DNA from: Patescibacteria group bacterium
GTDB taxonomy: Bacteria; Patescibacteriota; Patescibacteriia; PEXW01
NCBI GenBank assembly: GCA_038065015.1
Contig: JBBTRU010000001.1
Span: 1-51,416, forward strand
DNA: 51,416 nt
Reading direction: 5' to 3'
A program made the position numbers and the translations under genes. The notes beneath the pieces are model-generated. The model saw only the letters and a list, made by a program, of their open reading frames with translations. It was not told the origin of the DNA and did no database searches. Position 1 is the stretch's first letter, and each line of letters begins with the position of its first letter. Of the stretch, positions 1,508 through 45,954 are shown in pieces.

Positions 1508-1510
1508 AGG

Positions 1511-2770: not shown

Positions 2771-2804
2771 GCCTTATATTCTACACGATTTTCTATATCT
2801 CTGC

Positions 2805-4849: not shown

Positions 4850-4857
4850 AGGTGTGT

Positions 4858-5457: not shown

Positions 5458-5469
5458 AGGGCGGTGGGG

Positions 5470-8048: not shown

Positions 8049-8051
8049 ATG

Positions 8052-8519: not shown

Positions 8520-8522
8520 GGC

Positions 8523-9907: not shown

Positions 9908-12900
9908 TTAAATATTTTCGTCGCTGCCACCACCGGTACCACTGAACATGTTCTGCAAGCTGCCAAACTCGCTCTTGAACTCTTCGGCATTCCCGTCCCG
10001 CACGTGCTTTTCCATGCTGCCAATGTGCTTCTGGATTTCCGAACGACCCAGGTCGCTGAGTTTCTCGGATTTCTGTATTTCGGCAGCGTTATTCTTGATG
10101 TAACTCATAAGACCGCGCCAGACAATGCTGTTCTTGAGTGCGCTGTCCAAGACGTCGGCGGTTATCCCGGTTAGTTTACCACGAATTTCCGGCGGGGCGG
10201 ACTTGAAGACTTGCTGGATGTTCTGGGTGACGTTGGTAATGTTGGTGACGTTTGCTGCCGTCACGTCGGGTTCTTCAATAATGTCTCCCGTACCCCTTGT
10301 ACGGCCAGCAGCGCGCGTGGAAGTTTTGACGGTACGTTGAGACTGCGTAGATTCCTCTTTGGTCGCCACCGCTTGCTGTAATGCTGCTTGCTTTTCTGCA
10401 GTATTTTTACGTGCCGCCTCGGCCTTGGCCCGGGTCGGCTCCAGCTCGGCCTGCTCTTTGGCAATATCGTTGCGGTACGCCCCCATAAGCGTGTATGCAT
10501 TATCACGCTCGGCCTTACTCTTGGTACGGTCGTTATACGCAGCCTCATTCTTAGCATAATTATCCTGCAAACTCTTCAGCTTGGCATCTTTCTGTTTTCG
10601 GATGTTGGCATATTCCTGCTCGGCTTTTGCCTGCTCTTGCTGGGCAGCCTGGAATTCGTCTTTCTTTACCGACGTATCCATAACCTTCTGGGATTGCAAA
10701 ATACGCTCGCGCTGTTCATCCCTGACTTTTTCGTCTTCCCGACGGCGCTGCAACGGCGCGCCAACAAAATTCTTAACGCCTTGCCAGGCCTCACCGGCAT
10801 CCGCCCGCAATTTTCGGCCTGCCCCGGCTGCAGGCGGAACCACTACGTCTTCGAGTGCAGCTTCGTCTTTGGCGGTAAGTTTGAGGTCCACTCCTTTTGC
10901 TTCGGCCTTGGCTTTAAGCGCTAACGCCAAACCTGACTTGAGCTTCACAGCATCGGGCGATGTATCGGCCCAGCGACCTTGGTTGACCAAGCCCTTGGCC
11001 AAGTATTCATCAAACGCACGGTCTTCGCTCATCCCGGCGTGGTCAGACCGGTTGCGCTGGTCAGCAACAATTTCCTGGAATTCCTCGGGCGTAAATTGCG
11101 ACTTCATGGCTGCGCGGATAGAGCCATCATCATCCATGGCATCCAACTGCTTGTGCATGGCTTCTTCGGCCAGAATATTGCGCGCCGCCCCGCCCGACCG
11201 ATCAGCATTGATAAAGGTAATATCCTCGAGCTTCGATGGATCCTGTAACCGAGCTTGCGTTGCGCGCAAGGTGTTTTTCCGTGTTTGCAATGCAGCGCGT
11301 TGGGCTTCAATATCCTTGAGTTTTTCTGGGTCTGCCTGTGCCGGCGTCATCGGTCGGCCCGAGGCATCGAGCAGTTTACCAGCAGGCGTCTGCAATTGCT
11401 TTTCCTGCTGTGTGAGCTCAGCGAGCTCCGACTCTATCGAATCAACATCCCCTTGGATTTGCTGGTTGAGCACCCCGGCAATGCGCTTGATGGATTCTGG
11501 ATTACGCGTGTACCCGCCAGCAGTCGCTTTTACGCCTGCTTGGTTAAGCAAACCTTCACTTACGGCGAGGGTGTTTGACTTACCACTGTTGAACTTGCCC
11601 AAGCTGGTAATTTCGCTAGCGCCAGCCTTACCAGCTGCCAAGCGGTCCAGCACGCGCTGCTGCTGCCGCGCATTCTGCTGGTACTGTTGCTTGCTATAGT
11701 ACTTGCTTGGGTCGGCAATGTACTCGGCGCTTTTTTCAAATTCTTCTCCGTGCTGCGTGCGGAGTGCCTCGGTGCGTTGCTGCCGCTGATGATCAATGTC
11801 TTCTTGGGCAAGCACTTCGTCATCGGTATAGCGGCTGCCACGGGTAGCACCACCTCGGGCATTATCAATTGCCTCTTGCATTGATTGATTAACGTCAGAA
11901 TCAAATTTACTTTTATATTTGTCATTACGAAGACGTTCATCAAGTACGGGTAGTCCAACGCTTTTCATTACCGGGTCATCCCAATCTGATTTTTGCATGT
12001 CATTAAAATCAGCAAAGCTCATGCTCTTTATCTGATCGCGAAGCTTATTCTCGTAAAATGTACGCTCATCACCTGTGCTTGAGGATGCACGTACTGCCAG
12101 TAGGCCGGGGCTTTTCTTAAACAAATCTTTACGCCCCTTCAGTCCATCAGAGTCAATCGCCGATTCTGTAAACTCTCCAGGCTCACCACCAACTTTTGGC
12201 TTCTTCGAATAACCAATGTGTGCTTCATAGGCCGAAAGAATTTGCATCTTCTCTTCATTGGAGTAGCCGGCGAGCCCATGGGTCTTCATGGCATTCTCCA
12301 TAGCAGCCTTTTGGTACCCGCGGCCAGAAAGTGTTGCGGGATTCCCGAGGAGAATATCTCGCTCACCCTGTCCTTCTAAGAATTTCGCTGATGCGGCGTC
12401 CTTATCCTCCGACTTCATTCGTTGCTGTCGCAAAACGGCCTGCTGCTTTCGTGCGGCACCTTGGATTCCCAAAAAGTTCATTTTAGAGGCTAAACCCAGT
12501 GCTCCTTCACCCACACGGTACGCCGTAGGTTTTACCAAATCTGCTGCCCGCCCACCGGCAAATCCACCAAGTTTCTTCGCAATATTAAACGGCGCCATTG
12601 CACCGGCGGCGCCCAGGCGGTTAATATTCCCCATCCACTTACCGGCCACGTTACCGGCCACACCGCCGGCTTTGGTAGCCTGTTGTAACCCGGCCACCAG
12701 CATGCCCACGGCAACAATGTAATTAATAATTGAAGCAGTGGTCGTCGCCGCTCCCGCAAAGACCGGCTTATCCTGCGCGCCAGTTTGCTGGCTGGCAATC
12801 GTATCTTTAATTTGCACGTCGGGGAGTATGGTCGTATTCGAAAATGAAATGACGGTGAGCGCCAGCCACAAGAAAAAAGCGATAACCGGCCCTTTAATAA

Positions 12901-13699
12901 GCTGGTTCGAAAAATCCCGCCACCAGCTGCCCCACCAGCTGCCTAAGGAACCGGGCAGCACCGCCACCATGTAGGCCGTGGGCGCCAGGACAATGTAGAT
13001 CCAGAGCATGACAATGCGCTGGGCCAACAGCACCACGAAGATGCCCACCACCACCAGGGCAATGAACAGCATGACTACCGCAACGAATACCGAACCGAGC
13101 ACGGAGAGCGGGTTTATATCGCCACCCTGCGCACTTATATCTTGGGAAAAACTGACAATTTTATCAATGCCAAAGCCTTTCGTCAGGTTGCCGGCGGCCA
13201 TGTCTTTAAAGGCGTTGACAAAAGTGAGCATGACCACCTGCGAAAGGTCGATGAAGAATGCAGCAATGGTTTTGGAGAAGTTTATCAAGATGGCCATCAT
13301 AATGAGCTTCCGCAGCATGCTGGTGTAGCGGTACTCCTGAATTTGGAACACCGTACCAATAGATATCAGCAGCAAAGCCACAATGAAGAACATGTTGGCC
13401 ACATCGCGCGTCACTGCCCAGCCGGTCTGCACGGCCGGGGCATTGATGAAGTCGTTGTACTGCGCTATCCACACCAAAATATCTATAAACTTAATAAGCA
13501 AGCTGCCGAGAACATTCAGGATTATCGTCAGGAACCAGCTCACTATGGACACCACGCCATTGCCGAGTGCCGAAAGTGCCTGCGCGTGTGCGCCGGCCGG
13601 CCAGATGGCCACAATCGCGATTATCCCAACGCACAGCACCACCCCCTGGCGGGGATGTGCTTTAAGGTGCTGCCAGAATTTTCGAAAGGAAAAACTCAT
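9908..13699 (-). CDS. VirB6/TrbL-like polytopic membrane protein with ~900 aa coiled-coil C-terminal tail
   Basis: 1263 aa. The first ~350 aa hold 6-8 TM helices (WFLTIILNVLGSLLIKFIDILVWI, MFFIVALLLISIG, LIMMAILINFSKTIAAFFIDLSQVVMLTF, VFVAVVMLFIALVVVGIFVVLLAQRIVMLWIYIVLAP, GPVIAFFLWLALTVISF). The remainder is K/E/Q/A-rich, heptad-like sequence. The functional call rests on topology and operon position. Confidence 0.55.
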   Translation of the reverse strand: MSFSFRKFWQHLKAHPRQGVVLCVGIIAIVAIWPAGAHAQALSALGNGVVSIVSWFLTIILNVLGSLLIKFIDILVWIAQYNDFINAPAVQTGWAVTRDVANMFFIVALLLISIGTVFQIQEYRYTSMLRKLIMMAILINFSKTIAAFFIDLSQVVMLTFVNAFKDMAAGNLTKGFGIDKIVSFSQDISAQGGDINPLSVLGSVFVAVVMLFIALVVVGIFVVLLAQRIVMLWIYIVLAPTAYMVAVLPGSLGSWWGSWWRDFSNQLIKGPVIAFFLWLALTVISFSNTTILPDVQIKDTIASQQTGAQDKPVFAGAATTTASIINYIVAVGMLVAGLQQATKAGGVAGNVAGKWMGNINRLGAAGAMAPFNIAKKLGGFAGGRAADLVKPTAYRVGEGALGLASKMNFLGIQGAARKQQAVLRQQRMKSEDKDAASAKFLEGQGERDILLGNPATLSGRGYQKAAMENAMKTHGLAGYSNEEKMQILSAYEAHIGYSKKPKVGGEPGEFTESAIDSDGLKGRKDLFKKSPGLLAVRASSSTGDERTFYENKLRDQIKSMSFADFNDMQKSDWDDPVMKSVGLPVLDERLRNDKYKSKFDSDVNQSMQEAIDNARGGATRGSRYTDDEVLAQEDIDHQRQQRTEALRTQHGEEFEKSAEYIADPSKYYSKQQYQQNARQQQRVLDRLAAGKAGASEITSLGKFNSGKSNTLAVSEGLLNQAGVKATAGGYTRNPESIKRIAGVLNQQIQGDVDSIESELAELTQQEKQLQTPAGKLLDASGRPMTPAQADPEKLKDIEAQRAALQTRKNTLRATQARLQDPSKLEDITFINADRSGGAARNILAEEAMHKQLDAMDDDGSIRAAMKSQFTPEEFQEIVADQRNRSDHAGMSEDRAFDEYLAKGLVNQGRWADTSPDAVKLKSGLALALKAKAEAKGVDLKLTAKDEAALEDVVVPPAAGAGRKLRADAGEAWQGVKNFVGAPLQRRREDEKVRDEQRERILQSQKVMDTSVKKDEFQAAQQEQAKAEQEYANIRKQKDAKLKSLQDNYAKNEAAYNDRTKSKAERDNAYTLMGAYRNDIAKEQAELEPTRAKAEAARKNTAEKQAALQQAVATKEESTQSQRTVKTSTRAAGRTRGTGDIIEEPDVTAANVTNITNVTQNIQQVFKSAPPEIRGKLTGITADVLDSALKNSIVWRGLMSYIKNNAAEIQKSEKLSDLGRSEIQKHIGSMEKHVRDGNAEEFKSEFGSLQNMFSGTGGGSDENI

Positions 13700-16600
13700 T
13701 AGCGAATAATCACAATGTCATCCGGTAGCGGTTCCCAGTAAGAACTCTGCGTTGATGGGAACGAGTACGAGTATGGCGCGTTCGGGTTCACGCACCGCCC
13801 ACCATTGCACCAATCCCAGTTATCCTGAATTTGCACACGTGGACGAGCGATGCAGTACTCCTTTCCAGCAACCGCCTGGTTAAAATCTGGAGAAAACTTG
13901 TCACCATATTTACCGGTGCCTTTATCGAAGCATTGACCAGTACCTTGCCCAAAAAGATAGACATGTGTAAAAGAATGGGGGTCAGCGGCATTGCTGCGAG
14001 GAGCAAAATTCCATCGAATAATCTCATCGCTATTACTATCACCATCCCAGTCGATTGCAATATTTTTCATGGGTAATTGCTCCTTATCTACGATGCTATT
14101 AAACTGGAGTTGTATAAGCTCGCCAGCACCAATAATAGTTACGCCAGATTCACGGTTTCCGACTTTTACACTTTCCACCAAGGGCGGAATACCACAATAG
14201 GCATTCGTGAGTGCTACTTGATTCGAGGACACTACATTTGCCTTGGCACGATCGTACACACCGCCACAAGCGGGCATTGTAAGGTAGTTATCCCGCCAAC
14301 CGGTTATGCGTGAATCTGTAGCGGTAATATCGACGTAGGTTTGCGTAGCTTCATCTAGCTGCCAAGCGCCGTAGACATTCGCGAAAAGCAGTTTCAAATA
14401 TGCGATACCTGTACTGGTTGCCTTGTTTGTGACAAATGCACCACCGCCTACATTTTGTGTTGAACCATAATCACATTTTTCCCCAGCAGTGCCACACTGC
14501 GCATCAGTGGTGCAGGCCTGACTTACTTTACTACCAGTCTGGCATACCTTGGCTGTACCGGCCCCAATACAGAAGCCCTTTGCTGCCGTACAGGTTGCGA
14601 TTTCGGCAAGTGTATTGCACGCGCTACCTGTGATACTGCAAATACGGCGCGAGCAATTACCGCCTGCGGCACAACCATAGACGCTGCTTGCGCGCACGTC
14701 TTGAGTTGCGCTCATCACATACACACCTTGCTTACCAGGTTCAACCGTATTATCACGAGTATCCCACTGCCCAGGATCTTCCAGGTGCAATTCTGGTGGC
14801 ACTATCGCGCCATACGGAGCTGTATCCTGTGAAGCCAGGTAACGTAAATCTGGCAGTGGGTAAGACTGACTACTCGTCCGATTCGACCAACTTGCATTAG
14901 TCCCGCCAGGTTGAACCACTTGGGCCACAACTTGGCAAATATCTCGTACTATAAAACGTATATCAAGCTTATAGTGGCCACCGCCACCAGAAGCATCGCA
15001 CATCCCAAAGTTAATTGTTGCGGTTCTTGTATTGGGATCAGCTGGCCATTGTACGCGCAATCCCCAAAGGTTGGTGTTGTCGTCGCTACCATCCCAGTCA
15101 TCGCAACCACTTGCATTAAACGCTGGACTCATGCCCGACCAAGTAAATGGCATATTACATTTTCTATCGCTCGCCGAGCCTTGGCCACCACAACCTGCGA
15201 CAAACCAAGCAGGGGTTGTTCCACTGCTTGCTGGGCAATTATCTGCATCGCAATAGTACTGCCCACTGGTACGATTCATTGTGAGAACAGTACCATTACC
15301 TGGGTGCCAATCACCATCTGCTGCAGACACTACTGCCTGTATAGTTTCCACTTGATTGAGTGAGTACCCATTGACAGTATACGACCAAGTTGCGCCCTCA
15401 TCTTCGGTTTCTTCCACAGTCCGCATGCTAATATTTGCACCCCGGCCGGCTGATTGTAAGCACATGTACAATGGATTTTGCCCACTATACCCCGCGGCTT
15501 CCACCCGGCCAAAAATATTTCGTTCGCCTGCGAGTAAATCAATGGGATACCAGCTCAAACACCCGGTGGGATTGCGCGGGTCTGGTTCCAAGCAGTACCC
15601 TTGCCAACCGTCGAAACGTTTTCCAGTATCATCCTGATAACCACACGAAAGTGCTGTTGAATTTGGGTACGCACGGCAAGAACGAGCAATATATGCATCA
15701 TTACTTAACTGACCGGTAATGCCGCTCGTTGTAGCGGGCAGTGGATCGTCCACGTTGAGGACAGGCAGCACAGAAACATCATCAATCGCTATTGCCGTAC
15801 GATTGTTACTGGGTACTAAGAAGTACACCATACCCGTGCTTTGATCGAAAGGCTGGTGCGTGCTATTCCCATTATTATCAAACGCAGTGTTCCCCTGGGC
15901 CTGTGTAGCGTTAGCACTTAACGTGAGCGGGCCAATGACGAAACGCTGCCACTGGGTGGTGGGCTTAACATTACCGTACCATGCATTGGTCGAGATGATC
16001 CCAGCAGTGGCACTGGAAGCTATACCTGCACTAATTTTCGTGTCGGTCAGTAATCGGTCTGGGCTCTGGACGTAACGAATGTTAAATGAGAGCACATACG
16101 TACGGTCGGGGGTCAAGCGGTTTGCCATGGCTGCAGTGGTGGTACGAATAACGGTCGGACGGGATCCACCAATTGATGGGGTGGCTTGCAGGAAAGGATT
16201 CACAGTCACGGGTGCGGTCGTATTGCCAACAGCTAAGGTTTGACTGGTCGTGAGAGCGAGCACACTACCATCGGTAGTTGAATCGGCTTGCAAAGTCCAT
16301 CCGCTCTCACTTAAAATTTTTGATTTATTAAACGTACCGTTCAGCACGTCATCGGCCACGGCCACGCCGTCGTTGCCCACTTGCGGGGCCACCCCGAACA
16401 AATACTTGCCATTGAGAATTTGATTCCCCGCCCATTGCAAACCGGCCAGCACCAAGCCGCTCTTGTTGCGCAGGTCTTCCCGGCTGTAGGCGGCCGTGTT
16501 GCCCGTAAAGTTCATGGGCTTGCACACGCCGGCGCCGCAATCCGCATCTACCACGCAGGTTTGCTTCGCATTGTTGCTGCAGCGCATTTCGTCTACAAAG

Positions 16601-19600
16601 TGGTTGCACTGGCCGCTGGGGCTAAAACTGTCGCAGGTGGCTAGGCCGAGGGTAAGATTTTCTTTTTGGCCATTCGGCTTGGTGCTTTCGATGGTGGTAG
16701 TTGGCGTTAGCCACTGGCTGCACTGCCGGTCGCGCTGCACTTTTAGCAGCACGTTACTGTCGCACAGTTCGGGGTGGTCGGCGCAGGCGGCCGGGCTGCC
16801 CGTGGCATCCGGATCGGTCGGCGAACCGCCGATGGGGCTCTGGTCGACATCGTAGGCCAGTGTCGCATTCGAAAGATCGTTGAAGAGTCGGCAGCCTTGC
16901 TTGTCGCCCACCTGGCCGTTGCAGCTGGTGGAATCTACGCTCTGCCGAATAACCGACGTGTTGGTGGTGCTGTTGACTTGCAGGTTATCCAGCCAGTAGC
17001 CGGTGGTGCCGCCCACTGCGCCGGCAATGACATTGCAAGTGACGGCATTACCCGAGAAGAACCGACCGCTAACCCGGAGCGCTGCCGTGTCGCCAAAGCG
17101 GTCGGCCGGAATGCGAAGGGTGGTGCTAGTATTATCGTTAAACAAGCTGCCATCGGGCGAGCTCACCGGCGCATCGCCGCCCTGCGCATTTTTGCAGCTC
17201 ACCAGGCCCAGCCGAAAGTCCTCAGTCATTGCCGCGCTGCCCTTGGCCACGTCGGCACTTACCACGTAGTACGCGTTCGCATCCAGGCTCACGGTTTGCG
17301 TAAAGGTGCCCTGGTTGGTAATAATTGCGCGCACCGCTTGCGAGCCGTTGTTGGGGACGTAGGCCTGCAGGCTCGCACTGACGCCACTCCAGCCTTGGGG
17401 CAGGCTGCCGTTGGCAACTTCGAAATTTCCATTGGTTGTCAAACTGGCGCCGGTGCCAAGTGGGTCCAAGAAGTTACCGCAGCCGTTTTGCTCGGCGGGA
17501 CAGAGTCCGGCGTAGCCGCCATTAGGCACCGCGGGCGGGATGTTGTTGAGCTCGCGCACCGGGCAGGGCGTATCCGTGCCAGCAATGTACCAACCCGCGG
17601 ACTTGTTGCCCGAAACATCGCGGTAGCTGCAGACTTTGCTGCCCGGGTTGCGGAAATAGGCATTGCCGCCTTCGGACAAAGTGTACTCCTCGCAGAACAG
17701 CGCTCCGCGGCCGCACATAATAGTGGTATAGGTGTCGGGGTTATCCCGCAGGTACACGGTTTCCATATTTTGCAGCTTGCCGCTGGCATCGAAATTCTCT
17801 TTGCCCAAGGCGCGGCAACCCTTCTCCTCGGCGCGGCAGGCTTTGGTCGGGTCGTTTACCCAGAATTCCACTTCGTCGGCATCGGTGTCGACTTTGTCGC
17901 CGGGGTACGGGTTGCTGCTAAACGGCGTGCCATCAGAAAGGAACTTGGTAAGCGCAGTAACATCCCCAACGTTGACATTCCCATCGGCATTCGTATCACC
18001 CGCTTCTAACGGGAAGGGCTTTGGGCCGCCAGAGAACATGTAGGCCGCTAGGTAATTAATGTCGGCGCTATCCACCTTGCCGCTGCCGTCTACGTCGCCG
18101 CGCTGGCTGGGGAAGGTAACGCTGGATGCAAACGCATCGGTAGAATTTTTAGTGTTGATGAGTGCCTCGCACCCCACCACTTCGGACTTGCAGAGTTTGC
18201 TAAAGCCGGAGTACGTGTTTACCACGTTGCTGCGGTTGCGGTATTCCTGGCAGCCTTCGAAGCCACCACACGCCGTCTGGCTGGCTTTAATGCGGTAGGT
18301 GCTGTCCGAAATCTCGGTGAGCACAAGGTTATCTATGTAGAAATCTGCACCCAGTACCGACAGGACATTGGTGCCTGCGGTTGCGAAGCTAACGTTCGTG
18401 GGTCCCAGGGTGTAGGCGTTCCAATCTGTCCTCACCGACACGGTACCCATAGACACGGCACTGCCGTTTTGCAAACGGGCTTCCACATCTACATTGGCAC
18501 CGGTATTACTCTTGGCCCAGAACGCCAGGACGTAGCTCTTACCCTGCACCAAGGGCTGGTTGGTTGCCTGGGCATTGGTGGTGACGTGCAAAGAATGCCC
18601 GCCAAAGGTTATGCTCTCGGTGGTGGGGTTAGTTGGATTGCCACTGACCACCCACGGGCTGGACGAGCCGTTTTCAAATTCGCTCTTGAGAATTGTACGG
18701 GTGTTGCTGCCGGTGTTGCCCACATACTCGCGGCAACCCACAGCCGCGGCCGAGCAGGAAAGGGATTTTGTGGCATCGGCGTAGTACACGTTGCTATCCA
18801 CGGTGTTGCGGTAGGGGTGGCAGTCAGCAGTGCCTTCGATAAGGCGCGAGCGCAAGCGGTAGTACACATTGCTTGGATTGAGATCATCGTAGTACTGGCC
18901 GCAGTCTGGATCGGTGCCAAAGGTCGCCTGGCAGTCGATAACTGCTGTTTGCGGGCTGGTGTTGTCTACGCAGTTGAGCGGCAAGGTCTGCCCGGTGTCC
19001 AGGTTGGTACACGGGCCGCTCCCCGCATTACTCTGCTTCAGGCGGTACTGTTTTAACTGGTAGCCGGATTCATTGTCGCCCACCCAGGAATAGTAGTTTT
19101 TCAAGCCCGGGTCGTTGGGCTGCACGCAGAGTTGGAGCTTGGTAAACTGCGCTTTGCCTTCGCCGCCCTGCGCCACCTGGTCTAGGTTGGTATACGCCTC
19201 GCAACCCACATCGGTAGCAGTGCACTGCGTACCGGTTTTGGCAATGAAAGAGACGAGCGGCTGGCAGTCTGCAGGGTTATTACTGCAAGCTGATGCCAGA
19301 GTTGGATCGCACGATGTAAACTTCGTCGGGAGGTCGCTCTTGCAGTAAAACCCGGTGCGCGTGTCGTGCGCTTTCAGCACCCCGGTGGTGGGCTGCTCGC
19401 GGAACGTGGCGCAGCCGGCTTTGTCGGCCGGGCAGCTAATGCCGCCCTTGGCTGGCACGGCTGTACCGCCCGCCGTCGGGGTGAACAAATCGCAACCCAC
19501 ATCCGCGGCAGTACATTTGGAAATAAACTTGCTGCATGCCGGCGGGTCCGTTGCCACATTGCCCGTACAGGCCAGGCCGTCGGCCGGCCGCTTGAGGTGC

Positions 19601-22600
19601 ACCTGGTTTACCGCGCCATAGTCTTTGTAGTCCGTCAGTTGGCTGCCCTCTTCTACCTGCACGTTATCCAGTACGTACGTGCACGTGTCGGTTGGCTCGA
19701 AGATAAGCGAGAAATTGATTTCGGTTCGCGTGCTGTCCACGGTGGTGGTGTAGCTGTACCGCTGCCAGTCCGGGGTAATGGTTAGGGCCGGAGCCGCGCC
19801 AAGCCAGCCGCCCGCCCCCAGCTGCGTCAACGGCGAGCAAGACGCGCCTTCGGATTTTGCGTAGAAAGAGGTGGTAAACGTTCGGCCGCCAATGGGCGTG
19901 CCTGTGTAGATGGTGGTGGTAAACTTCTGGGCGCTCGGTGTGCAGTCGGGCAAATATTGCAACCGCGCGGCCTGGCTGCCGCCGAACGCCAGGGACGAGG
20001 CAAAAGTCTGCGCCCCGCAGGTGTGCGTGCCATTCCCCGTTAGCCAGCCGCTAAAGTTAGCATTACCGGCCGGGTTGACCACCGTGGACTGCTCGAAGCC
20101 GCCATTGCCCGCCAGGTTGGTACCGGTAGTCATGCGCAAAAACTGCGTGCAGCCCTCGGCATTTGCGTCGCACTCCTGGGCATCGCGGTCAAAGCGCTTG
20201 GTCGCCGTCGGCAGCGTAGCATCCGTACACGACCACTTGCCGGCCGTGTAGTCGTAAGTAGTGCAGTACTGCTGGCAACCGGCATTATCCGCACCGCAAC
20301 TGTTGGGCTGTAGTGTATTCTGCAGGTAGCTCACGCTCTGGCCGCCACTGTCGGTGTAGGTCTGGCAGGATGCGTACACGTTGTTGCAGCTCTGGCCGTT
20401 GAAACGCCAAGTGTCTTTTTCTTCGGTGCAGGTGCCAAACTGCTTGCACGTGCCGTCGTCGTTTTCCAATACGCAGGTGCGTTCGTCCACGCAGGCTTCG
20501 CGGCGCTGGATTTGCTCTTGCCGGGGTGTAATGAAGGCGCAGGTGGCGAGCGCAACAGCACCATCGTCCCGCTTCTTCACGCACAGTCCCTGGCCAGGCG
20601 GGTCGGTATCATATTGCGCAATACATGGTGTGCTTGGGTCCAGTGGATCGGTCGTGCATTTACATTCCTTGCCCACATTCGCATCGGAGTCGCTATTGCA
20701 ATACCGCTTAGCATAATCAATATTCTTCCGGCCGCCTTCATCGCCGTCCTCATCCACAAATTCCTGCGAGATAATATCCGAAGAAAAACCCGTGCGTAAG
20801 CAAATATTCTCTGGCGATTTCAGCACCCAGGTGGGATCAATGAGGCGGTAGTAGGGCGAGTCGGGGTTGTCGAACTGCTGCACGATTGCGCCCAGGTTTA
20901 CGTTTTGCCGCTCGAAATCTCTTATGTACTGGGCGGCCAGATCCCAACCCACCGGGAGTACTCGATACTTGCGCAAAATCTTTAAGCTACGGAACGGGTA
21001 GCCGCTGCGGAAGTCTGGCTCGCGGCCGTTTGCATCGAAGCCGAACACTTTTTGGTCCGAGAGCAACTTGCGGTCCAGGGCTTGCTGCACAGTCAGGTGC
21101 TCTTCCACGGCCTGGCGAAAAGACGAATCAATCACGCAATTATTTGCAGACACCAAACCTAATGTTGTTGCGGAAACATTGGTCACATCCACTGGGCAAG
21201 CACTAAGGTCATTGAGAATATCTATGCCACCCCCCGTACCAAGGTTTACTTGGCCCAAGCTGGCAAATCGCTCTTTGGCCGCCGCCACACCGCCCGAGGA
21301 ACTGCTAATGATTCCGCCATTACCAAACTGTAAACTTTTGGCCTTCGGGTCTACTATGCCTTTGCTGAAAATGCGCTCAATGAGCTTGTTCGTGAGCGTG
21401 TTAGTAAAAATGCCAAACGCATCCGCAATGGGCGATCCGGTTTGCGTGGTTTCACTCTTGGAGGCATTCTGCGTGCTCAAGCCTTCTTCAGTGGTTTTCT
21501 TGGTGAGGAATGATGGAGTTTTAATTGCCCCGCTAATGAGCGCCTTAATTGGCAACGCTCCGCCAAAGAGTTGCGTATCTTTCTCTTTTTTTTCTGCTTC
21601 GACTTTTTTTTCTTGGGCTTCGTCGTAGAGGGTCAAAAACTGCCCAAGCGGATTTTCGGTGGGTTTAAAAATTTTTGGGAGGTCGCCTTTTTCAAAAGCT
21701 TGCTGCAGCGATGCGCCGGTCGCTTGTCTGGAGCCAAGGGGCGTGCCAACCGAAATGCTGCTCTGGGCAAGACCGCTCTGTATATTGTCGCCAATTGCAC
21801 TAAGTGTGCAAGAGGTGGTACGCCGAGTTTTGGCGCTGGTACACTTGTTGATACATAGTTTTAGGTTCGCGTCGGCTTGAGAACCCATTTGCACTACATC
21901 TTTAATTTTATTCCTGCATTCATTCATGGTTTTTATACATAAAAAACCATCACCGCATGCACTGCAATAGGACCAAATCGTCGGCGTTTTTTCCCGTGCT
22001 TCATTCCCACCGTAATTCATTGGTGGATCCCAGGCTGCGTCAGGATGTTCTCGACATGACGCTGCTCCTGTACTTGGGTCGGTGTACCACTCACAGCGTC
22101 CGAGATTCTGCGTCCAGGCATCCGCATCACATTCTGATTTTAAAGAAGTTGCGGCACACCGTGCGCCTTCTCTTGTAGTTATATCGCTAATGAGTGCCTC
22201 AAAAGCCGACAGCTCTGCACCTAGATTCCTTAAATTGTCAGACTTTCCCCCCTCGACAAGTTCTAACTGATCACTATAATTTTTTTGGCAATTTTCCTGG
22301 CAGAAGTTCGGATCCAGGTTAACGCGCAAGGCAATATCAATGTTCAGCTTGGCAAAGCCCGGGTCGCACATGCTCACGCCAAACTGCTCTTTAGAGAGCG
22401 TATCCAAAAAGTCACCGGCCGCGGCATTGCCCAGGTTTTTAAAGTAATTCGGATCCGTAATAAAAAGTGGGCCTTGCCCTTTTGCGCCCGAGGCTATCCA
22501 CGTTGCGGTATCTTCAGCAATCTTGCCTAAAAACACTCGCATAGCGTTTTTAAACGCAGCATCGCCTGCTTTCTTGTATAAATTCTTGGCTAGTTCTGCA

Positions 22601-22836
22601 GTTTTATCAGCAATATAACGCCCCGCATCAACAATATTCCTTACAATACGCTCCACCAGAGAGCCCGGATCACTAACGACGAATTGCGCGTTCGCCGGCA
22701 CTGGTCGAATAAGCGCGGCGGCAAGACCAACTACGAGTAGCACGCTCGCTACACCTGTTACAAAGGCACGTTGAGGCGACGTTGCCTTACGTTGGCGATG
22801 AAATATTGAGAAAAATTTTCTGCGCTTAGGAGCCAT
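13699..22836 (-). CDS. Giant Cys-rich surface protein: N-terminal anchor, four CBM4_9-like modules, internal dockerin
   Basis: The ORF is open 13699..22908 (3069 codons). The ATG at 22836 (MAPKRRKFFSIF) is preferred because it cuts the overlap with the upstream gene to 11 nt. One TM/signal anchor (VASVLLVVGLAAALIRPVPANA). Module signatures and the dockerin are detailed in the findings. The stop overlaps the next ATG (TAATG). Confidence 0.8.
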   Translation of the reverse strand: MAPKRRKFFSIFHRQRKATSPQRAFVTGVASVLLVVGLAAALIRPVPANAQFVVSDPGSLVERIVRNIVDAGRYIADKTAELAKNLYKKAGDAAFKNAMRVFLGKIAEDTATWIASGAKGQGPLFITDPNYFKNLGNAAAGDFLDTLSKEQFGVSMCDPGFAKLNIDIALRVNLDPNFCQENCQKNYSDQLELVEGGKSDNLRNLGAELSAFEALISDITTREGARCAATSLKSECDADAWTQNLGRCEWYTDPSTGAASCREHPDAAWDPPMNYGGNEAREKTPTIWSYCSACGDGFLCIKTMNECRNKIKDVVQMGSQADANLKLCINKCTSAKTRRTTSCTLSAIGDNIQSGLAQSSISVGTPLGSRQATGASLQQAFEKGDLPKIFKPTENPLGQFLTLYDEAQEKKVEAEKKEKDTQLFGGALPIKALISGAIKTPSFLTKKTTEEGLSTQNASKSETTQTGSPIADAFGIFTNTLTNKLIERIFSKGIVDPKAKSLQFGNGGIISSSSGGVAAAKERFASLGQVNLGTGGGIDILNDLSACPVDVTNVSATTLGLVSANNCVIDSSFRQAVEEHLTVQQALDRKLLSDQKVFGFDANGREPDFRSGYPFRSLKILRKYRVLPVGWDLAAQYIRDFERQNVNLGAIVQQFDNPDSPYYRLIDPTWVLKSPENICLRTGFSSDIISQEFVDEDGDEGGRKNIDYAKRYCNSDSDANVGKECKCTTDPLDPSTPCIAQYDTDPPGQGLCVKKRDDGAVALATCAFITPRQEQIQRREACVDERTCVLENDDGTCKQFGTCTEEKDTWRFNGQSCNNVYASCQTYTDSGGQSVSYLQNTLQPNSCGADNAGCQQYCTTYDYTAGKWSCTDATLPTATKRFDRDAQECDANAEGCTQFLRMTTGTNLAGNGGFEQSTVVNPAGNANFSGWLTGNGTHTCGAQTFASSLAFGGSQAARLQYLPDCTPSAQKFTTTIYTGTPIGGRTFTTSFYAKSEGASCSPLTQLGAGGWLGAAPALTITPDWQRYSYTTTVDSTRTEINFSLIFEPTDTCTYVLDNVQVEEGSQLTDYKDYGAVNQVHLKRPADGLACTGNVATDPPACSKFISKCTAADVGCDLFTPTAGGTAVPAKGGISCPADKAGCATFREQPTTGVLKAHDTRTGFYCKSDLPTKFTSCDPTLASACSNNPADCQPLVSFIAKTGTQCTATDVGCEAYTNLDQVAQGGEGKAQFTKLQLCVQPNDPGLKNYYSWVGDNESGYQLKQYRLKQSNAGSGPCTNLDTGQTLPLNCVDNTSPQTAVIDCQATFGTDPDCGQYYDDLNPSNVYYRLRSRLIEGTADCHPYRNTVDSNVYYADATKSLSCSAAAVGCREYVGNTGSNTRTILKSEFENGSSSPWVVSGNPTNPTTESITFGGHSLHVTTNAQATNQPLVQGKSYVLAFWAKSNTGANVDVEARLQNGSAVSMGTVSVRTDWNAYTLGPTNVSFATAGTNVLSVLGADFYIDNLVLTEISDSTYRIKASQTACGGFEGCQEYRNRSNVVNTYSGFSKLCKSEVVGCEALINTKNSTDAFASSVTFPSQRGDVDGSGKVDSADINYLAAYMFSGGPKPFPLEAGDTNADGNVNVGDVTALTKFLSDGTPFSSNPYPGDKVDTDADEVEFWVNDPTKACRAEEKGCRALGKENFDASGKLQNMETVYLRDNPDTYTTIMCGRGALFCEEYTLSEGGNAYFRNPGSKVCSYRDVSGNKSAGWYIAGTDTPCPVRELNNIPPAVPNGGYAGLCPAEQNGCGNFLDPLGTGASLTTNGNFEVANGSLPQGWSGVSASLQAYVPNNGSQAVRAIITNQGTFTQTVSLDANAYYVVSADVAKGSAAMTEDFRLGLVSCKNAQGGDAPVSSPDGSLFNDNTSTTLRIPADRFGDTAALRVSGRFFSGNAVTCNVIAGAVGGTTGYWLDNLQVNSTTNTSVIRQSVDSTSCNGQVGDKQGCRLFNDLSNATLAYDVDQSPIGGSPTDPDATGSPAACADHPELCDSNVLLKVQRDRQCSQWLTPTTTIESTKPNGQKENLTLGLATCDSFSPSGQCNHFVDEMRCSNNAKQTCVVDADCGAGVCKPMNFTGNTAAYSREDLRNKSGLVLAGLQWAGNQILNGKYLFGVAPQVGNDGVAVADDVLNGTFNKSKILSESGWTLQADSTTDGSVLALTTSQTLAVGNTTAPVTVNPFLQATPSIGGSRPTVIRTTTAAMANRLTPDRTYVLSFNIRYVQSPDRLLTDTKISAGIASSATAGIISTNAWYGNVKPTTQWQRFVIGPLTLSANATQAQGNTAFDNNGNSTHQPFDQSTGMVYFLVPSNNRTAIAIDDVSVLPVLNVDDPLPATTSGITGQLSNDAYIARSCRAYPNSTALSCGYQDDTGKRFDGWQGYCLEPDPRNPTGCLSWYPIDLLAGERNIFGRVEAAGYSGQNPLYMCLQSAGRGANISMRTVEETEDEGATWSYTVNGYSLNQVETIQAVVSAADGDWHPGNGTVLTMNRTSGQYYCDADNCPASSGTTPAWFVAGCGGQGSASDRKCNMPFTWSGMSPAFNASGCDDWDGSDDNTNLWGLRVQWPADPNTRTATINFGMCDASGGGGHYKLDIRFIVRDICQVVAQVVQPGGTNASWSNRTSSQSYPLPDLRYLASQDTAPYGAIVPPELHLEDPGQWDTRDNTVEPGKQGVYVMSATQDVRASSVYGCAAGGNCSRRICSITGSACNTLAEIATCTAAKGFCIGAGTAKVCQTGSKVSQACTTDAQCGTAGEKCDYGSTQNVGGGAFVTNKATSTGIAYLKLLFANVYGAWQLDEATQTYVDITATDSRITGWRDNYLTMPACGGVYDRAKANVVSSNQVALTNAYCGIPPLVESVKVGNRESGVTIIGAGELIQLQFNSIVDKEQLPMKNIAIDWDGDSNSDEIIRWNFAPRSNAADPHSFTHVYLFGQGTGQCFDKGTGKYGDKFSPDFNQAVAGKEYCIARPRVQIQDNWDWCNGGRCVNPNAPYSYSFPSTQSSYWEPLPDDIVIIR
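17929..18099 (-). other. Dockerin (type I-like, two Ca-binding segments) embedded at aa ~1604-1660 of the giant protein
   Basis: GDVDGSGKVDSADINYLAAYMFSGGPKPFPLEAGDTNADGNVNVGDVTALTKFLSDG. This is a duplicated D-x-[DN]-x-[DS]-G-x-V-[DN]-x-x-D loop-helix pattern. Confidence 0.75.
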
Positions 22837-23626
22837 TCGTGTTCGTATTTTCTTTGAGCGCTTCTTGGAGGGCTTGGTCGTAGACGGCGCGCAGGGTGGC
22901 GTCGTCATAGCTGTTCAAGGTGGTTTCGTCCACGCCGCCAGACTTGAGGAACTCGCGAATTTCCGGAATCGTCAGGTTTTTGAGCTGGTCTACCGTTAGT
23001 GAGCTATTGGTTGCGGTTGCCGTATTTGCATTGGCAGTAGTATTCGTATTCGTGGCTTCGCTGGCAACGACATCCTGATAGTTTTTGAGTAAGGTTGCAT
23101 CGTCAATGGCGTCTACTTCGGCTTGGGAAACCCCGGCAGCCAAGAGTGCTTCGCGCAATTGCTGTGGGGTTACCGTGCTCGTGCCGGCTACCGGGGCAGT
23201 ATTCGTAGTTTCGTTGCCAGCCGCGGCATTGGTGTTGCTTATAACCCCGCAGGTCTGGCCGGCTGGGCAGTTGGGGTTGGTGTTGCTGTCTACTTCTTGT
23301 TTGTCGGTCTGGCCGTCGCTATCCGAATCCGCAATGTAGGGGCTGGTATTGTAGCTGTAGAGCTCGTCGTAGTCGGTTAAACCGTCTTTATCGGTATCTT
23401 TAGCCTGCAAGGCCAACAACTCGGTATTCTGCGGCTGCGTATCCCGCTGCAATTGCGCCCGACCCGCAACAGTGAAAGGCTGCTTGAGGTTGCTACGGAG
23501 TTGAAACCCACCCAGGACCAAAGCTGAGATCCCTAGCCCAAAAATCAGCCACGCTAACCGCTGCTTGCGCTGTTTTTGCTCCGGATCACGTGGTTGCACG
23601 TCCCCGTTCGCTGGTTCGTTTTCCAT
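22826..23626 (-). CDS. Membrane-anchored protein with thrombospondin type 3 (Ca-binding) repeats
   Basis: 266 aa. TM (LAWLIFGLGISALVLGGF). TSP3-like DTDKDGLTDYDE and DSDSDGQTDKQEVDSNTNP. T/N-rich low complexity follows. First gene of the operon. Confidence 0.6.
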   Translation of the reverse strand: MENEPANGDVQPRDPEQKQRKQRLAWLIFGLGISALVLGGFQLRSNLKQPFTVAGRAQLQRDTQPQNTELLALQAKDTDKDGLTDYDELYSYNTSPYIADSDSDGQTDKQEVDSNTNPNCPAGQTCGVISNTNAAAGNETTNTAPVAGTSTVTPQQLREALLAAGVSQAEVDAIDDATLLKNYQDVVASEATNTNTTANANTATATNSSLTVDQLKNLTIPEIREFLKSGGVDETTLNSYDDATLRAVYDQALQEALKENTNTNGS

Positions 23627-30993: not shown

Positions 30994-31071
30994 GGGCTGC
31001 AGAATACCACGATTTTGCCACTGGAGCAAGCTACTTTTTGGCTAAGGTTAGCCTAAAAAACTCCAAAACCG

Positions 31072-40158: not shown

Positions 40159-40160
40159 GG

Positions 40161-41534: not shown

Positions 41535-41564
41535 ACAGCCTAGTATAGCGCGTTTTTTCAGGGT

Positions 41565-42680: not shown

Positions 42681-42691
42681 AGGTGTATGGG

Positions 42692-44594: not shown

Positions 44595-44728
44595 AGGTTT
44601 GTCTAGTCAAAACTACCCCCATACTATAGCACATTCTTGGTTGGTTCCCTATCGTGACGAAGGACAAATACCTGGAGTGCCCATTATGAGGCCTTCAGGC
44701 AATGTCCATAATATTCACGCCAAGTACG

Positions 44729-45947: not shown

Positions 45948-45954
45948 ACCTAGG

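What the first reader, a model, noticed from the sequence alone, without database searches (positions are those of the whole stretch)
13699..22908. 3,000-aa Cys-rich mosaic protein with recurring G-C-x-x-[FY] motif, four CBM-like modules and a mid-chain dockerin
**Seen in translation.**
- There is one uninterrupted ORF of 3,069 codons.
- Four modules start N-G-x-F-[EN] and end [LI]-D-[ND]-[LV]-x-[VL]. They are LAGNGGFEQS...VLDNVQVEEG (~19650-20120), KSEFENGSSSPW...YIDNLVLTEI (~18310-18690), TNGNFEVANGSLPQGW...WLDNLQVNS (~16975-17440) and LNGTFNKSKILSESGW...AIDDVSVLPV (~15765-16360).
- That start/end pattern is what CBM4_9/CBM22-type beta-sandwich modules look like.
- The first three modules are each preceded by G-C-x-x-[FY] 10-15 residues upstream (AEGCTQF, AVGCREY, QNGCGNF).
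- I find the motif at least nine times (also AGCQQY, VGCDLF, AGCATF, VGCEAY, EGCQEY, QGCRLF), plus variants (VGCEAL, KGCRAL, LFCEEY).
- Cys is very frequent throughout; I did not count it exactly.
- The dockerin (aa ~1604-1660) sits in the middle of the chain, not at the C-terminus as in cellulosomal enzymes.

**Inference.** This is a disulfide-stapled, glycan-binding adhesin that can be docked to a cohesin partner. The Cys motif may define an undescribed small repeat domain.
Basis: partly seen in the sequence, partly recalled or inferred. Interest (0 to 1): 0.8.

Follow-up and report, generated by a model that had tools for sequence, protein, structure and literature searches.

The report
Giant lectin-like protein heading T4SS operon
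This 3,000-residue, disulfide-rich surface protein carries four sugar-binding-type modules and a docking module, and it is the conserved first gene of the type IV secretion operon of an ultra-small (Patescibacteria) bacterium, so it is a good candidate for the part that grips the host cell.

Summary
There is one 3,069-codon ORF, with the real start probably at M25. It has 113 Cys, four mutually homologous CBM4/CBM22-type beta-sandwich modules and a mid-chain type I dockerin with both calcium loops intact. The recurring Cys motif is real, but it is better written C-x6-C-x2-[FYL]: 13 copies against 0.5 expected.

The gene belongs to a Patescibacteria family with more than 1,000 clusters at 50% identity, mostly proteins of 2,400-3,600 aa. 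No Pfam or NCBIfam model covers the N-terminal domain that defines the family.

The gene sits between a 266-aa membrane protein and a VirB6/TrbL-like protein. Downstream come PrgI (VirB3), TrsD, VirB4, a VirB8-like protein, a VirB2-like pilin and a DsbA-like oxidoreductase. Three membrane-anchored cohesin proteins and a second dockerin protein lie 15-20 kb upstream, and this arrangement is conserved in a related genome.

The signal peptide plus the first ~30 mature residues give weak hits, and the only families hit repeatedly are VirB5, TrbJ and DUF4141 (T4SS minor pilins).

Best reading: a Sec-exported, disulfide-stapled, cohesin-docked lectin-like adhesin of the T4SS. This is a new variant of a known kind. 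Its function is inferred, not shown.

The parts
13699..22908 (-). Giant ORF, 3,069 codons. The probable true start is M25 at 22836, giving 3,045 aa.
   Evidence: P0001, the same contig in the database, is 3,045 aa, and homologues align from M25.
22687..22836 (-). Signal peptide, aa 25-74: a basic N-region, a 20-residue hydrophobic core and an A-N-A|Q signal peptidase I site.
   Evidence: Hydropathy peak at aa 49-67. An A-x-A site is conserved across 86 family N-termini, with A32 nearly invariant. Cleavage is inferred.
22609..22686 (-). First ~26 mature residues (QFVVSDPGSLVERIVRNIV...), resembling the N-terminus of VirB5, TrbJ and DUF4141.
   Evidence: DUF4141 at 22.5-22.7 bits for this protein, with the best family member at 29.9 bits against a cutoff of 30. 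VirB5 and TrbJ models are the only families hit repeatedly. All hits are below threshold.
20749..22686 (-). N-terminal domain that defines the family (aa 75-720). It is mostly helical and has no Pfam or NCBIfam model. It includes a lineage-specific Cys-rich insert at aa 205-350 (21859-22296).
   Evidence: 1,082 representative clusters at E<=1e-3. 217 GTDB species. AlphaFold pLDDT 54, helical, with only aa ~592-702 confident, and no Foldseek match. Insert not conserved.
20134..20700 (-). Cys-rich linker region (aa 737-925) with C-x6-C hairpins at aa 841, 871 and 913.
   Evidence: AlphaFold confidence is low here.
19651..20118 (-). Module 1 (aa 931-1086), a CBM4-like beta-sandwich.
   Evidence: Family profile against laminarinase CBM4 1gui, E 1.1e-4. 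pLDDT 83-94. Foldseek matches to CBM4-2 and CBM22, TM-score normalised to the target 0.6-0.7.
18709..19569 (-). Most conserved core (aa 1114-1400), a beta-rich region stapled by hairpins at aa 1132, 1159, 1208, 1229 and 1385. It contains the near-invariant VGCE[AY]TNLD...GGEG.
   Evidence: Invariant columns in A2. pLDDT 70-92 for aa ~1169-1309 and 1329-1400. No family assigned.
18310..18693 (-). Module 2 (aa 1406-1533), CBM_4_9 / CBM22-like.
   Evidence: Pfam 34.3 bits against 25.9. Family profile against CBM22 4xup, E 1.2e-5. Confident beta-sandwich.
17935..18102 (-). Type I dockerin (aa 1603-1658) with two intact calcium loops.
   Evidence: Pfam 31.6 bits against 22.9. PDB dockerin hits. Loops read. 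Present only in the P0001-P0015 subclade.
17470..17838 (-). Hairpin-bearing linker (aa 1691-1813) with C-x6-C at aa 1691, 1732 and 1803.
16975..17442 (-). Module 3 (aa 1823-1978), CBM-like on profile evidence only. It is the weakest of the four.
   Evidence: Module HMM cross-hits at 2.5e-4 to 4e-3. No Pfam CBM hit. Not modelled.
15766..16362 (-). Module 4 (aa 2183-2381), CBM_4_9-like with an insertion.
   Evidence: Cross-hits to module 2 at 9e-11 and 2.8e-8. Weak Pfam CBM_4_9, E 0.012. Not modelled.
14959..15423 (-). Swapped variable cassette (aa 2496-2650).
   Evidence: 63% identical to P0005 but at most 30% to every other homologue, whereas the rest of the protein is closest to P0002-P0004.
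13702..14673 (-). C-terminal Cys-rich region and conserved end (aa 2746-3069). It contains IAIDWDGD...PH..HVY...QIQDNWDWCN, which looks PKD-like by eye only.
   Evidence: Conserved down to homologues 24-28% identical. No Pfam or PDB hit.
22826..23626 (-). 266-aa single-pass membrane protein with a weak calcium-binding TSP3 repeat. It is the conserved partner gene immediately upstream.
   Evidence: A homologue lies directly upstream of the giant gene in 76 of 80 species loci.
9908..13699 (-). 1,263-aa polytopic protein, an 'extended' VirB6/TrbL-like protein. Its start codon overlaps the giant ORF's stop codon.
   Evidence: 7-8 hydrophobic segments in aa 1-335. Homologues carry PF04610 TrbL/VirB6 (2) and PF19590 (6). 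It follows the giant gene in all 6 further loci.
893..9899 (-). Rest of the T4SS operon: a 458-aa protein, PrgI/VirB3 (8052-8519), TrsD-like (7368-8048), VirB4 of the CD1110 family (5470-7368), VirB8-like (4858-5457, weak), a 3-TM protein, a VirB2-like pilin with 24 Cys (2805-4118), a PD40 protein, and a DsbA-like thioredoxin (893-1507).
   Evidence: VirB4 scores 355.5 bits against the NF045971 cutoff of 325.
38410..43549 (-). Candidate docking partners: three proteins with a signal peptide, a cohesin domain and a C-terminal TM anchor (38410-40158 with its probable start, 40161-41534, 41565-42680), plus a second dockerin protein with Big_13 and Dockerin domains (42692-43549).
   Evidence: Pfam Cohesin E 3.9e-7, 7.6e-8 and 1.3e-4; Dockerin E 7.4e-8. 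Architectures read. The same cluster lies next to the T4SS region in the P0010 genome.

Best explanation
The ORF encodes the giant extracellular component of a Patescibacteria (ABY1/Kerfeldbacteria-like) type IV secretion system. I read it as a host-contact adhesin.

**Proposed steps.**
1. (Inferred) The protein is exported by Sec, and signal peptidase I cleaves it after A-N-A (aa 74).
2. (Inferred from conservation and context) Its 112 remaining Cys form disulfides outside the cell, with help from the DsbA-like oxidoreductase at the end of the operon. Short C-x6-C loops staple the start of beta-strands at module boundaries and give a rigid, protease-resistant stalk.
3. (Inferred from invariant gene order) The conserved helical N-terminal domain ties the protein to the secretion machine. 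Its gene always lies between a 266-aa membrane protein and the VirB6-like channel subunit.
4. (Fold shown, ligand unknown) Four CBM4/CBM22-type lectin modules bind glycans on the envelope of the host bacterium.
5. (Domains shown, pairing inferred) In this subclade only, a mid-chain dockerin clips the chain to one of three membrane-anchored cohesin proteins encoded nearby. This holds the cleaved protein on the cell surface.

The net role would be to recognise the host cell and hold it where the T4SS and its pilus act.
For: **T4SS operon identity.** PrgI, the TraG/VirB4 P-loop domain and T4SS_pilin. VirB4 passes the CD1110 family cutoff and TrsD is present. A weak full-length VirB8 match. VirB6/TrbL Pfam hits in homologues of the downstream polytopic protein.

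**Gene order.**
- The pair of 266-aa protein and giant gene is found in 76 of 80 species-level loci.
- The VirB6-like gene follows the giant in 6 of 6 further loci. PrgI and TrsD, with VirB4 next in the gene tables, follow wherever the locus reaches far enough.

**Family size.** 1,082 clusters at 50% identity and 217 GTDB species, all Patescibacteria where the records are correctly labelled.

**Export.** Hydrophobic segment and a conserved A-x-A site.

**Disulfides.** 95 of 113 Cys conserved. DsbA-like gene.

**Lectin fold.**

**Dockerin and cohesins.**

**Literature.** The Patescibacteria T4SS is essential for epibiotic growth and its role is unknown (PMC10633639; PMC11665869). A 2025 survey found no PrgB-type adhesin and left unannotated neighbours uncharacterised (PMC12102498).
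Against: - No experiment or expression data exists. Adhesion, the glycan ligand, signal peptide cleavage, the disulfides and the cohesin pairing are all inferred.
- Operon membership does not prove a role in secretion.
- The cultivated model Southlakia has a T4SS cluster without any 3,000-aa protein. The giant protein is therefore not universal to Patescibacteria T4SSs.
- In one locus (L087) the VirB6-like gene is followed by PEP-utilizer genes rather than T4SS genes within 10 kb.
- The N-terminal domain could not be modelled with confidence (pLDDT 54) and matches no known fold.
- About 60% of the chain has no assigned fold.
Confidence: 0.6

Rival explanations
1. It is the VirB5/TrbJ equivalent of this T4SS. 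On this reading it is a minor pilin or pilus-tip protein whose short N-terminal pilus-association segment has been fused to a 3,000-residue adhesin. It would sit at the tip of the VirB2-like pilus rather than on the cell body.
For: - Among 86 family N-termini, the only families hit more than twice are DUF4141 (7 members, best E 3e-7), VirB5 NF010434 (5), TrbJ NF010448 (4) and TrbJ_Ti (3). VirB5 TIGR02791 is hit twice, as is one unrelated family, DUF948 (best E 0.026). Every other family is a singleton.
- DUF4141 proteins are encoded between traG (VirB4) and traJ (VirB6) in Bacteroides conjugative transposons.
- The giant gene directly precedes the VirB6-like gene. From my own knowledge, virB5 precedes virB6 and trbJ precedes trbL in the same way.
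- A VirB2-like pilin is in the operon.
Against: - Every hit is below its family cutoff. Each covers only the signal peptide plus about 30 residues.
- Only about 8% of family members give the signal.
- The profile of family N-termini finds no VirB5 structure in the PDB.
- tblastn against plasmids finds nothing.
- The N-terminal model is too poor to compare with the VirB5 fold.
Confidence: 0.18
2. It is a general surface adhesin or envelope protein whose place in the T4SS operon reflects co-expression or gene-order inertia. On this reading it has no functional link to secretion.
For: - CBM-like modules, dockerins and giant size are common in surface proteins unrelated to T4SS.
- The upstream synteny includes housekeeping genes (KsgA, Sua5, LeuRS), so the whole region is a conserved block.
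- L087 lacks T4SS genes within 10 kb downstream.
Against: - The stop codon of the giant ORF overlaps the start codon of the VirB6-like gene.
- The order 266-aa protein, giant gene, VirB6-like gene persists down to homologues 24% identical, while the other neighbours change.
Confidence: 0.15
3. It is a secreted toxin or effector released onto the host cell. The lectin modules would serve as receptor-binding domains, as in Cry protoxins or binary toxins.
For: The top Foldseek hits include Cry1Ac, Cry1Ca and Cry8Ba protoxins and the CDTb and iota-Ib binary-toxin components. If the signal peptide is cleaved, no membrane anchor remains.
Against: - Those matches have whole-chain TM-scores of only 0.10-0.17 normalised to the query. 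They reflect shared CBM-like beta-sandwiches.
- No pore-forming, enzymatic or toxin domain was found by Pfam, NCBIfam or PDB profile searches.
- No immunity gene is evident.
Confidence: 0.05
4. It is a cellulosome-like scaffold or enzyme for polysaccharide breakdown, or it is an assembly chimera or pseudogene.
For: Dockerin, cohesin and CBM modules are cellulosome vocabulary. GC3 varies strongly along the ORF: 0.44-0.53, then 0.66-0.78, then 0.39-0.44.
Against: - No glycoside hydrolase or other catalytic domain exists in the protein or in the cohesin cluster.
- Thirteen full-length collinear homologues come from independent assemblies.
- The reading frame is intact and the Cys are conserved.
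Confidence: 0.02

Closest known systems
PrgB (aggregation substance) and PrgC of the Enterococcus pCF10 Gram-positive T4SS (MPF-FATA class)
   Same: A large surface protein encoded upstream of the VirB6 (PrgH), VirB3 (PrgI) and VirB4 (PrgJ) genes of a monoderm T4SS. It is presumed to make cell-to-cell contact. The VirB4 here belongs to the same broad class (PMC12102498).
   Different: No sequence or domain relationship: no polymer-adhesin domain and no LPXTG anchor. The protein here is about 2.3 times longer and disulfide-rich. It uses CBM-like modules and a dockerin. The 2025 survey found no PrgB homologue in Patescibacteria.
VirB5, TrbJ and TraI (DUF4141) minor pilins of Gram-negative and Bacteroides T4SSs, including tip adhesins such as CagL
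   Same: A signal peptide followed by a V-x-D-P-x-x-L-type helix start gives the only recurring weak hits. The gene lies immediately upstream of the VirB6 homologue. The presumed role is host contact.
   Different: VirB5 proteins are about 220 aa, whereas this protein is 3,045 aa. All matches are below threshold and about 40 residues long. The fold is unverified.
TraN of F-like plasmids with the plasmid-encoded thioredoxin-like TrbB and TraF (recalled from my own knowledge)
   Same: A Cys-rich T4SS adhesin for mating-pair stabilisation whose disulfides are serviced by an oxidoreductase encoded in the same operon. This parallels the Cys-rich giant protein, the Cys-rich pilin and the DsbA-like gene here.
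   Different: TraN is an outer-membrane protein of about 600 aa in diderms. No homology was detected.
Non-cellulosomal cohesin-dockerin systems and CBM4/CBM22 modules of glycoside hydrolases
   Same: The dockerin, the cohesins and module 2 pass Pfam thresholds. The modelled modules superpose on CBM4-2 and CBM22.
   Different: There is no catalytic partner. The dockerin is mid-chain rather than C-terminal. The cohesin proteins are single-cohesin membrane anchors, not multi-cohesin scaffoldins.

Membership tests
CBM_4_9 / CBM22 (galactose-binding-like beta-sandwich) | Sequence match above the curated family threshold | tested here: met
   Module 2 scores 34.3 bits against a cutoff of 25.9. Modules 1, 3 and 4 do not pass on their own. 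They are linked through profiles: module 1 to PDB CBM4 at E 1.1e-4, and module-to-module HMM hits.
CBM_4_9 / CBM22 (galactose-binding-like beta-sandwich) | Jelly-roll beta-sandwich fold that superposes on solved CBMs | tested here: met
   For modules 1 and 2: pLDDT 80-94 and Foldseek TM-scores normalised to the target of 0.6-0.74 to 4bj0, 1gui, 4xup and 8xmz. Modules 3 and 4 were not modelled.
CBM_4_9 / CBM22 (galactose-binding-like beta-sandwich) | Carbohydrate binding | not testable with these tools
   Needs glycan arrays or pull-downs. Binding-cleft residues were not analysed.
Type I dockerin | Pfam match above threshold and two EF-hand-like loops with D/N at positions 1, 3, 5, 9 and 12 | tested here: met
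   31.6 bits against 22.9. Loops DVDGSGKVDSAD and DTNADGNVNVGD, with Ser at position 5 of the first loop. PDB dockerin alignments.
Type I dockerin | A cohesin partner encoded in the genome | tested here: met
   Three cohesin-domain proteins in the window. Orthologous clusters are on the same contigs as dockerin-bearing giant-protein orthologues. Actual binding is untested.
VirB5 / TrbJ / DUF4141 T4SS minor pilin | Family-level sequence match | tested here: inconclusive
   Only sub-threshold matches of about 40 residues: DUF4141 at most 29.9 bits against a cutoff of 30, and VirB5 and TrbJ at 13-21 bits against cutoffs of 100-346. These are still the only families hit more than twice across 86 members.
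VirB5 / TrbJ / DUF4141 T4SS minor pilin | A small (~220 aa) three-helix bundle with a globular appendage | tested here: not met
   The protein is 3,045 aa. The N-terminal model is helical but of low confidence (pLDDT 54) and has no Foldseek match. It is therefore not filed as a VirB5 member, only as possibly VirB5-derived at its N-terminus.
VirB5 / TrbJ / DUF4141 T4SS minor pilin | Gene adjacent to the VirB6 homologue in a T4SS operon | tested here: met
PrgB-type Gram-positive T4SS adhesin | Polymer-adhesin (GbpC-like) domain and LPXTG sortase anchor | tested here: not met
   No such Pfam or NCBIfam hit. The C-terminus reads ...WEPLPDDIVIIR, with no LPXTG or TM segment.
Cellulosomal enzyme or scaffoldin | A catalytic glycoside hydrolase module, or multiple cohesins in one chain | tested here: not met
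   None found in the giant protein or its neighbours.

The most novel reading that the evidence does not exclude
The protein may be a hypertrophied VirB5-type tip adhesin. On this reading, a monoderm, pilus-bearing T4SS of Patescibacteria carries a 3,000-residue, disulfide-stapled lectin stalk at the end of its VirB2-like pilus, and that stalk selects the host cell. The family, with more than 1,000 clusters, swappable cassettes and a subclade-specific dockerin, would then be the host-range determinant of a large part of the candidate phyla radiation.
Probability: 0.18. Interest if true: 0.85.

Novelty: new variant of a known kind. Interest (0 to 1): 0.66.

Why it matters
Patescibacteria make up a large share of bacterial diversity and live attached to other microbes. 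Their type IV secretion system is the first one shown to be essential for the growth of the bacterium that carries it, yet its role is unknown. A 2025 survey reported finding no adhesin linked to it.

This work points to a widespread, unannotated giant protein family that always sits at the head of that operon in ABY1-type lineages. The family carries lectin-type modules and mosaic cassettes. That gives a concrete, testable candidate for how these cells recognise and hold their hosts. It also supplies a new N-terminal domain family and a short disulfide-loop motif that could be added to annotation databases.

Tried and rejected
- **NCBIfam on the whole protein.** No hit.
- **PDB sequence search with the single protein.** Only dockerins.
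- **AlphaFold of the N-terminal domain.** Poor model (pLDDT 54), and Foldseek found nothing with E<3. The fold of the family-defining domain stays unknown.
- **Profile of 86 N-termini against PDB sequences.** Only generic designed helices; no VirB5.
- **tblastn of the N-terminal domain against 72,556 plasmids.** One chance hit, to a relaxase.
- **PDB and Pfam searches on the 1,263-aa neighbour.** Nothing direct. Its VirB6 identity came only from Pfam hits recorded for its homologues.
- **Pfam on the C-terminal 675 residues and on the inter-module regions.** Nothing. The PKD-like reading of the last ~100 residues rests on motif inspection alone.
- **Hairpin motif elsewhere.** No copy in eight other ORFs of the window that I checked, including the 24-Cys pilin.
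- **Literature searches.** Searches for giant or Cys-rich proteins with the T4SS in Patescibacteria found no description of this family.
- **Southlakia T4SS cluster.** It has no counterpart of this size.
- **Rejected readings.** Cellulosome (no catalytic modules) and assembly chimera (collinear homologues).

Full report
**1. What is in the sequence**

ORF 13699..22908 on the minus strand is open for 3,069 codons. The database copy of this same 51,416-bp contig (P0001, 3,045 aa) and all close homologues begin at the residue equivalent to M25. The real start is therefore probably window 22836.

The protein has 113 Cys, 3.7% of residues. G-C-x-x-[FY] occurs 9 times against 0.73 expected from shuffles. 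The fuller unit is C-x6-C-x2-[FYL], with 13 copies against 0.54 expected (shuffle maximum 4). A spacing of 7 residues is by far the commonest distance between consecutive Cys.

Pooled over this protein and eight diverse homologues, the unit reads C-[PS]-A-[ED]-A-[VA]-G-C-x-[AE]-[YF]-T. Nothing is conserved around it. It recurs 8-14 times per protein, even at 24% overall identity.

In the AlphaFold model, the second Cys of each copy runs straight into a beta-strand that carries the aromatic residue. The copies at aa 913, 1229 and 1385 show this. The motif is therefore a disulfide-closed loop that caps a strand at module boundaries. It is not a repeat domain.

Of the 113 Cys, 95 are at least 80% conserved in 13 close homologues. 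Mean conservation is 0.89 for Cys and 0.50 for other residues.

**2. The modules**

- *Sequence evidence.* Pfam assigns CBM_4_9 to aa 1406-1499 and Dockerin_1 to aa 1604-1657, both above threshold. A profile of the whole family matches CBM22 (Xyn10C) at module 2 and CBM4 (laminarinase 16A, xylanase CBM4-2) at module 1 among PDB sequences.
- *Relationship between modules.* HMMs built from each of the four modules across the family find one another. Modules 1, 2 and 4 match at 1e-8 to 1e-11. Module 3 matches only at about 1e-3 to 1e-4.
- *Structure.* The AlphaFold model of aa 780-1560 has mean pLDDT 71, with 80-94 in the two modules. Its beta-sandwiches match CBM4-2, CBM22, CBM16 and a porphyran-binding CBM, with TM-scores of 0.6-0.74 normalised to the target.
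- *Toxin-like hits.* The whole-chain hits to Cry protoxins, binary toxins and Elapor1 have TM-scores near 0.1. They only reflect shared sandwich domains.
- *Dockerin.* It has two canonical calcium loops and aligns to solved type I dockerins. It is present only in the closer subclade (P0001-P0015) and missing from P0016-P0028.

About 60% of the chain has no assignable fold. That includes the N-terminal 650 residues, the conserved core at aa 1114-1400 and the C-terminal 675 residues.

**3. The family**

The whole protein has full-length collinear homologues at 40-67% identity in 13 independent assemblies, plus shorter or split relatives down to 24% identity. Where they are named, all are Patescibacteria.

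The N-terminal domain (aa 75-720) alone finds 1,082 representative clusters at 50% identity, 951 of them at E<=1e-10. Most are proteins of 2,400-3,600 aa.

A scan of one genome per GTDB species finds 217 species. Named ones include Kerfeldbacteria, Falkowbacteria, Kuenenbacteria, Buchananbacteria, the Parcubacteria group and one Microgenomatus. From my own knowledge of GTDB, the first four belong to class ABY1. Several records carry evidently wrong labels such as 'Gammaproteobacteria'.

No Pfam or NCBIfam model covers this domain.

**4.

The gene heads a minus-strand operon. The order is:
- a 266-aa membrane protein;
- the giant gene;
- a 1,263-aa polytopic protein whose start codon overlaps the giant ORF's stop codon;
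- a 458-aa protein;
- PrgI (VirB3);
- a TrsD-like protein;
- VirB4, which scores 355.5 bits against the CD1110-family cutoff of 325;
- a weak full-length VirB8 match;
- a 3-TM protein;
- a VirB2-like T4SS pilin with 24 Cys;
- a PD40 protein;
- a DsbA-like thioredoxin.

Homologues of the polytopic protein carry TrbL/VirB6 Pfam hits (PF04610 in two, PF19590 in six). I recall PF19590 as a TrbL-like family but could not check this here.

The gene order is conserved.
- A homologue of the 266-aa protein lies directly upstream of the giant gene in 76 of 80 species loci. KsgA lies upstream in 65 of 80.
- The VirB6-like gene follows the giant gene, or its split halves, in all six further loci examined.
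- PrgI and TrsD, with VirB4 next in the gene tables, follow wherever the locus reaches far enough.
- One locus (L087) instead shows PEP-utilizer genes after the VirB6-like gene.

The published survey of Patescibacteria T4SSs describes VirB4, TrsD, PrgI, VirB6, VirB8 and VirB2-like pilins, and notes KsgA nearby. It states that no PrgB-type adhesin was detected and does not describe this protein (PMC12102498).

The T4SS is essential for epibiotic growth in Southlakia, and its function is unknown (PMC10633639, PMC11665869, PMC12857230). The Southlakia cluster has no protein of this size.

**5. A docking system in the same window**

Three proteins at 38410-42680 share one architecture: a signal peptide, one cohesin domain, Ig-like middle domains and a C-terminal membrane anchor. 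A 285-aa protein at 42692-43549 carries Big_13 plus a C-terminal dockerin.

Cohesin orthologues lie on contigs of exactly the same lengths as those that carry dockerin-bearing orthologues of the giant protein: 62,379, 513,202, 51,993, 181,924 and 229,691 bp. In the P0010 genome, the same cluster of a dockerin protein plus three cohesins lies just beside the T4SS region on one contig.

It also suggests how a protein that loses its only hydrophobic segment on signal peptide cleavage could stay on the cell.

**6. A VirB5-like N-terminus?**

The whole-protein Pfam scan gave a weak DUF4141 hit at aa 66-91. I scanned 86 family N-termini without preselection.
- *Families hit more than twice.* DUF4141 (7 members, best E 3e-7), VirB5 NF010434 (5), TrbJ NF010448 (4) and TrbJ_Ti (3).
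- *Families hit twice.* VirB5 TIGR02791, and one unrelated family, DUF948 (best E 0.026).
- *Everything else.* Singletons.

DUF4141 proteins are encoded between traG (VirB4) and traJ (VirB6) in Bacteroides conjugative transposons. That is the slot virB5 and trbJ occupy in proteobacterial operons (my own knowledge), and it is the slot the giant gene occupies here.

All these matches are below threshold, span about 40 residues and occur in about 8% of members. No structural confirmation was possible. This is a lead, not a membership.

**7. Mechanism**

I commit to a host-contact adhesin of the T4SS. The protein is exported by Sec and folded oxidatively. It is tied to the machine through its N-terminal domain, presents four lectin-type modules on a disulfide-stapled stalk, and in this subclade is clipped to membrane cohesins.

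- *Shown.* The domains and folds of two modules, the dockerin and cohesins, the identity of the operon, and the conserved gene order.
- *Inferred.* Signal peptide cleavage, the disulfides, the ligand, the docking, and any role in secretion.

My confidence is 0.6. The rivals are a VirB5-type pilus-tip adhesin (0.18), a general adhesin that merely travels with the operon (0.15), a secreted toxin (0.05), and a cellulosome component or artefact (0.02).

**8. Unexplained**

GC3 runs at 0.44-0.53 for codons 1-600, at 0.66-0.78 for codons 600-2,100, and at 0.39-0.44 for codons 2,400-3,000. The middle zone matches the window's baseline (VirB4 0.76, LeuRS 0.66). The orthologue in L001 is uniform apart from a dip at the variable cassette.

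At the protein level, aa 2496-2650 are 63% identical to P0005 but at most 30% identical to all other homologues, which indicates a cassette swap. The low GC3 of the N-terminal third is not explained by a different protein ancestry.

Collinear homologues argue against an assembly chimera, but read coverage could not be checked.

**9. Verdict**

It is wrong about a repeat domain, and it misses the T4SS context.

This is a new variant of a known kind (T4SS-associated adhesins and giant surface proteins). It belongs to a large protein family that I could not find described in the literature I could search.

Noticed in passing
window 38410-43549 (-): A small cohesin-dockerin system in a Patescibacterium. 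It has three paralogous proteins, each with a signal peptide, one cohesin domain and a C-terminal membrane anchor. It also has a 285-aa protein with Big_13 and a dockerin. The cluster is conserved next to the T4SS region in a related genome (L089).
   Followed up: partly
window 43557-51380 (-); L089:1-1541: Three further surface-protein genes. A 345-aa protein has weak WxLIP_PGBD and fn3_5 hits and a C-terminal membrane anchor. A 383-aa protein and a 1,681-aa ORF that runs to within about 40 bases of the contig end both finish with ...TYI[AV]TGTF. The orthologue of the long one is 3,513 aa. This looks like a WxL-type surface cluster.
   Followed up: no
window 2805-4118 (-): The VirB2-like T4SS pilin is 437 aa. 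After the pilin core (aa 76-130) it carries an extension of about 300 residues with most of its 24 Cys. By my recollection VirB2-type pilins are far shorter. The extension has no C-x6-C-x2-[FYL] motif.
   Followed up: partly
window 13699-22908 (-), codons 1-600 and 2400-3000: Strong GC3 zoning within the gene: about 0.47, then about 0.72, then about 0.41, against a window baseline of about 0.65-0.75. Other low-GC3 genes or segments are the MFS transporter (0.42), the first cohesin gene (0.48), the 383-aa protein (0.44), and codons 450-600 of the VirB6-like gene (0.43).
   Followed up: partly
window 14959-15423 (-) (aa 2496-2650): A cassette shared only with homologue P0005 (63% identity against at most 30% for all others). 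A second variable Cys-rich insert at aa 205-350 is unique to this protein. Both point to modular shuffling within the family.
   Followed up: partly
L003:10001-20998; L086:10001-21249: In more distant relatives the giant gene is split into two adjacent ORFs: 2,053 + 1,524 aa and 1,718 + 2,031 aa. In L003 the second half carries fn3, Big_7 and Pur_ac_phosph_N hits instead of the C-terminal architecture seen here.
   Followed up: no
window 28372-31029 (-) compared with L001:1373-4756, L003:2335-6435, L086:2292-6866: The leucyl-tRNA synthetase is 885 aa here. In related genomes it is 1,127-1,524 aa, with NUDIX, Ser_hydrolase and Ham1p-like domain hits inside the synthetase.
   Followed up: no
window 5470-8048 (-): The VirB4 function is split. 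A 226-aa TrsD-like protein matches the N-terminal part of VirB4 models and is followed by a 632-aa ATPase. This is the arrangement the 2025 survey reports as typical of Patescibacteria.
   Followed up: partly
window 27888-28367 (-): A DUF559 / MTES_1575 endonuclease-like ORF (E 2e-35) sits between LeuRS and the Sua5-side genes. It overlaps the neighbouring 207-aa ORF and is absent from the syntenic loci L001 and L003.
   Followed up: no
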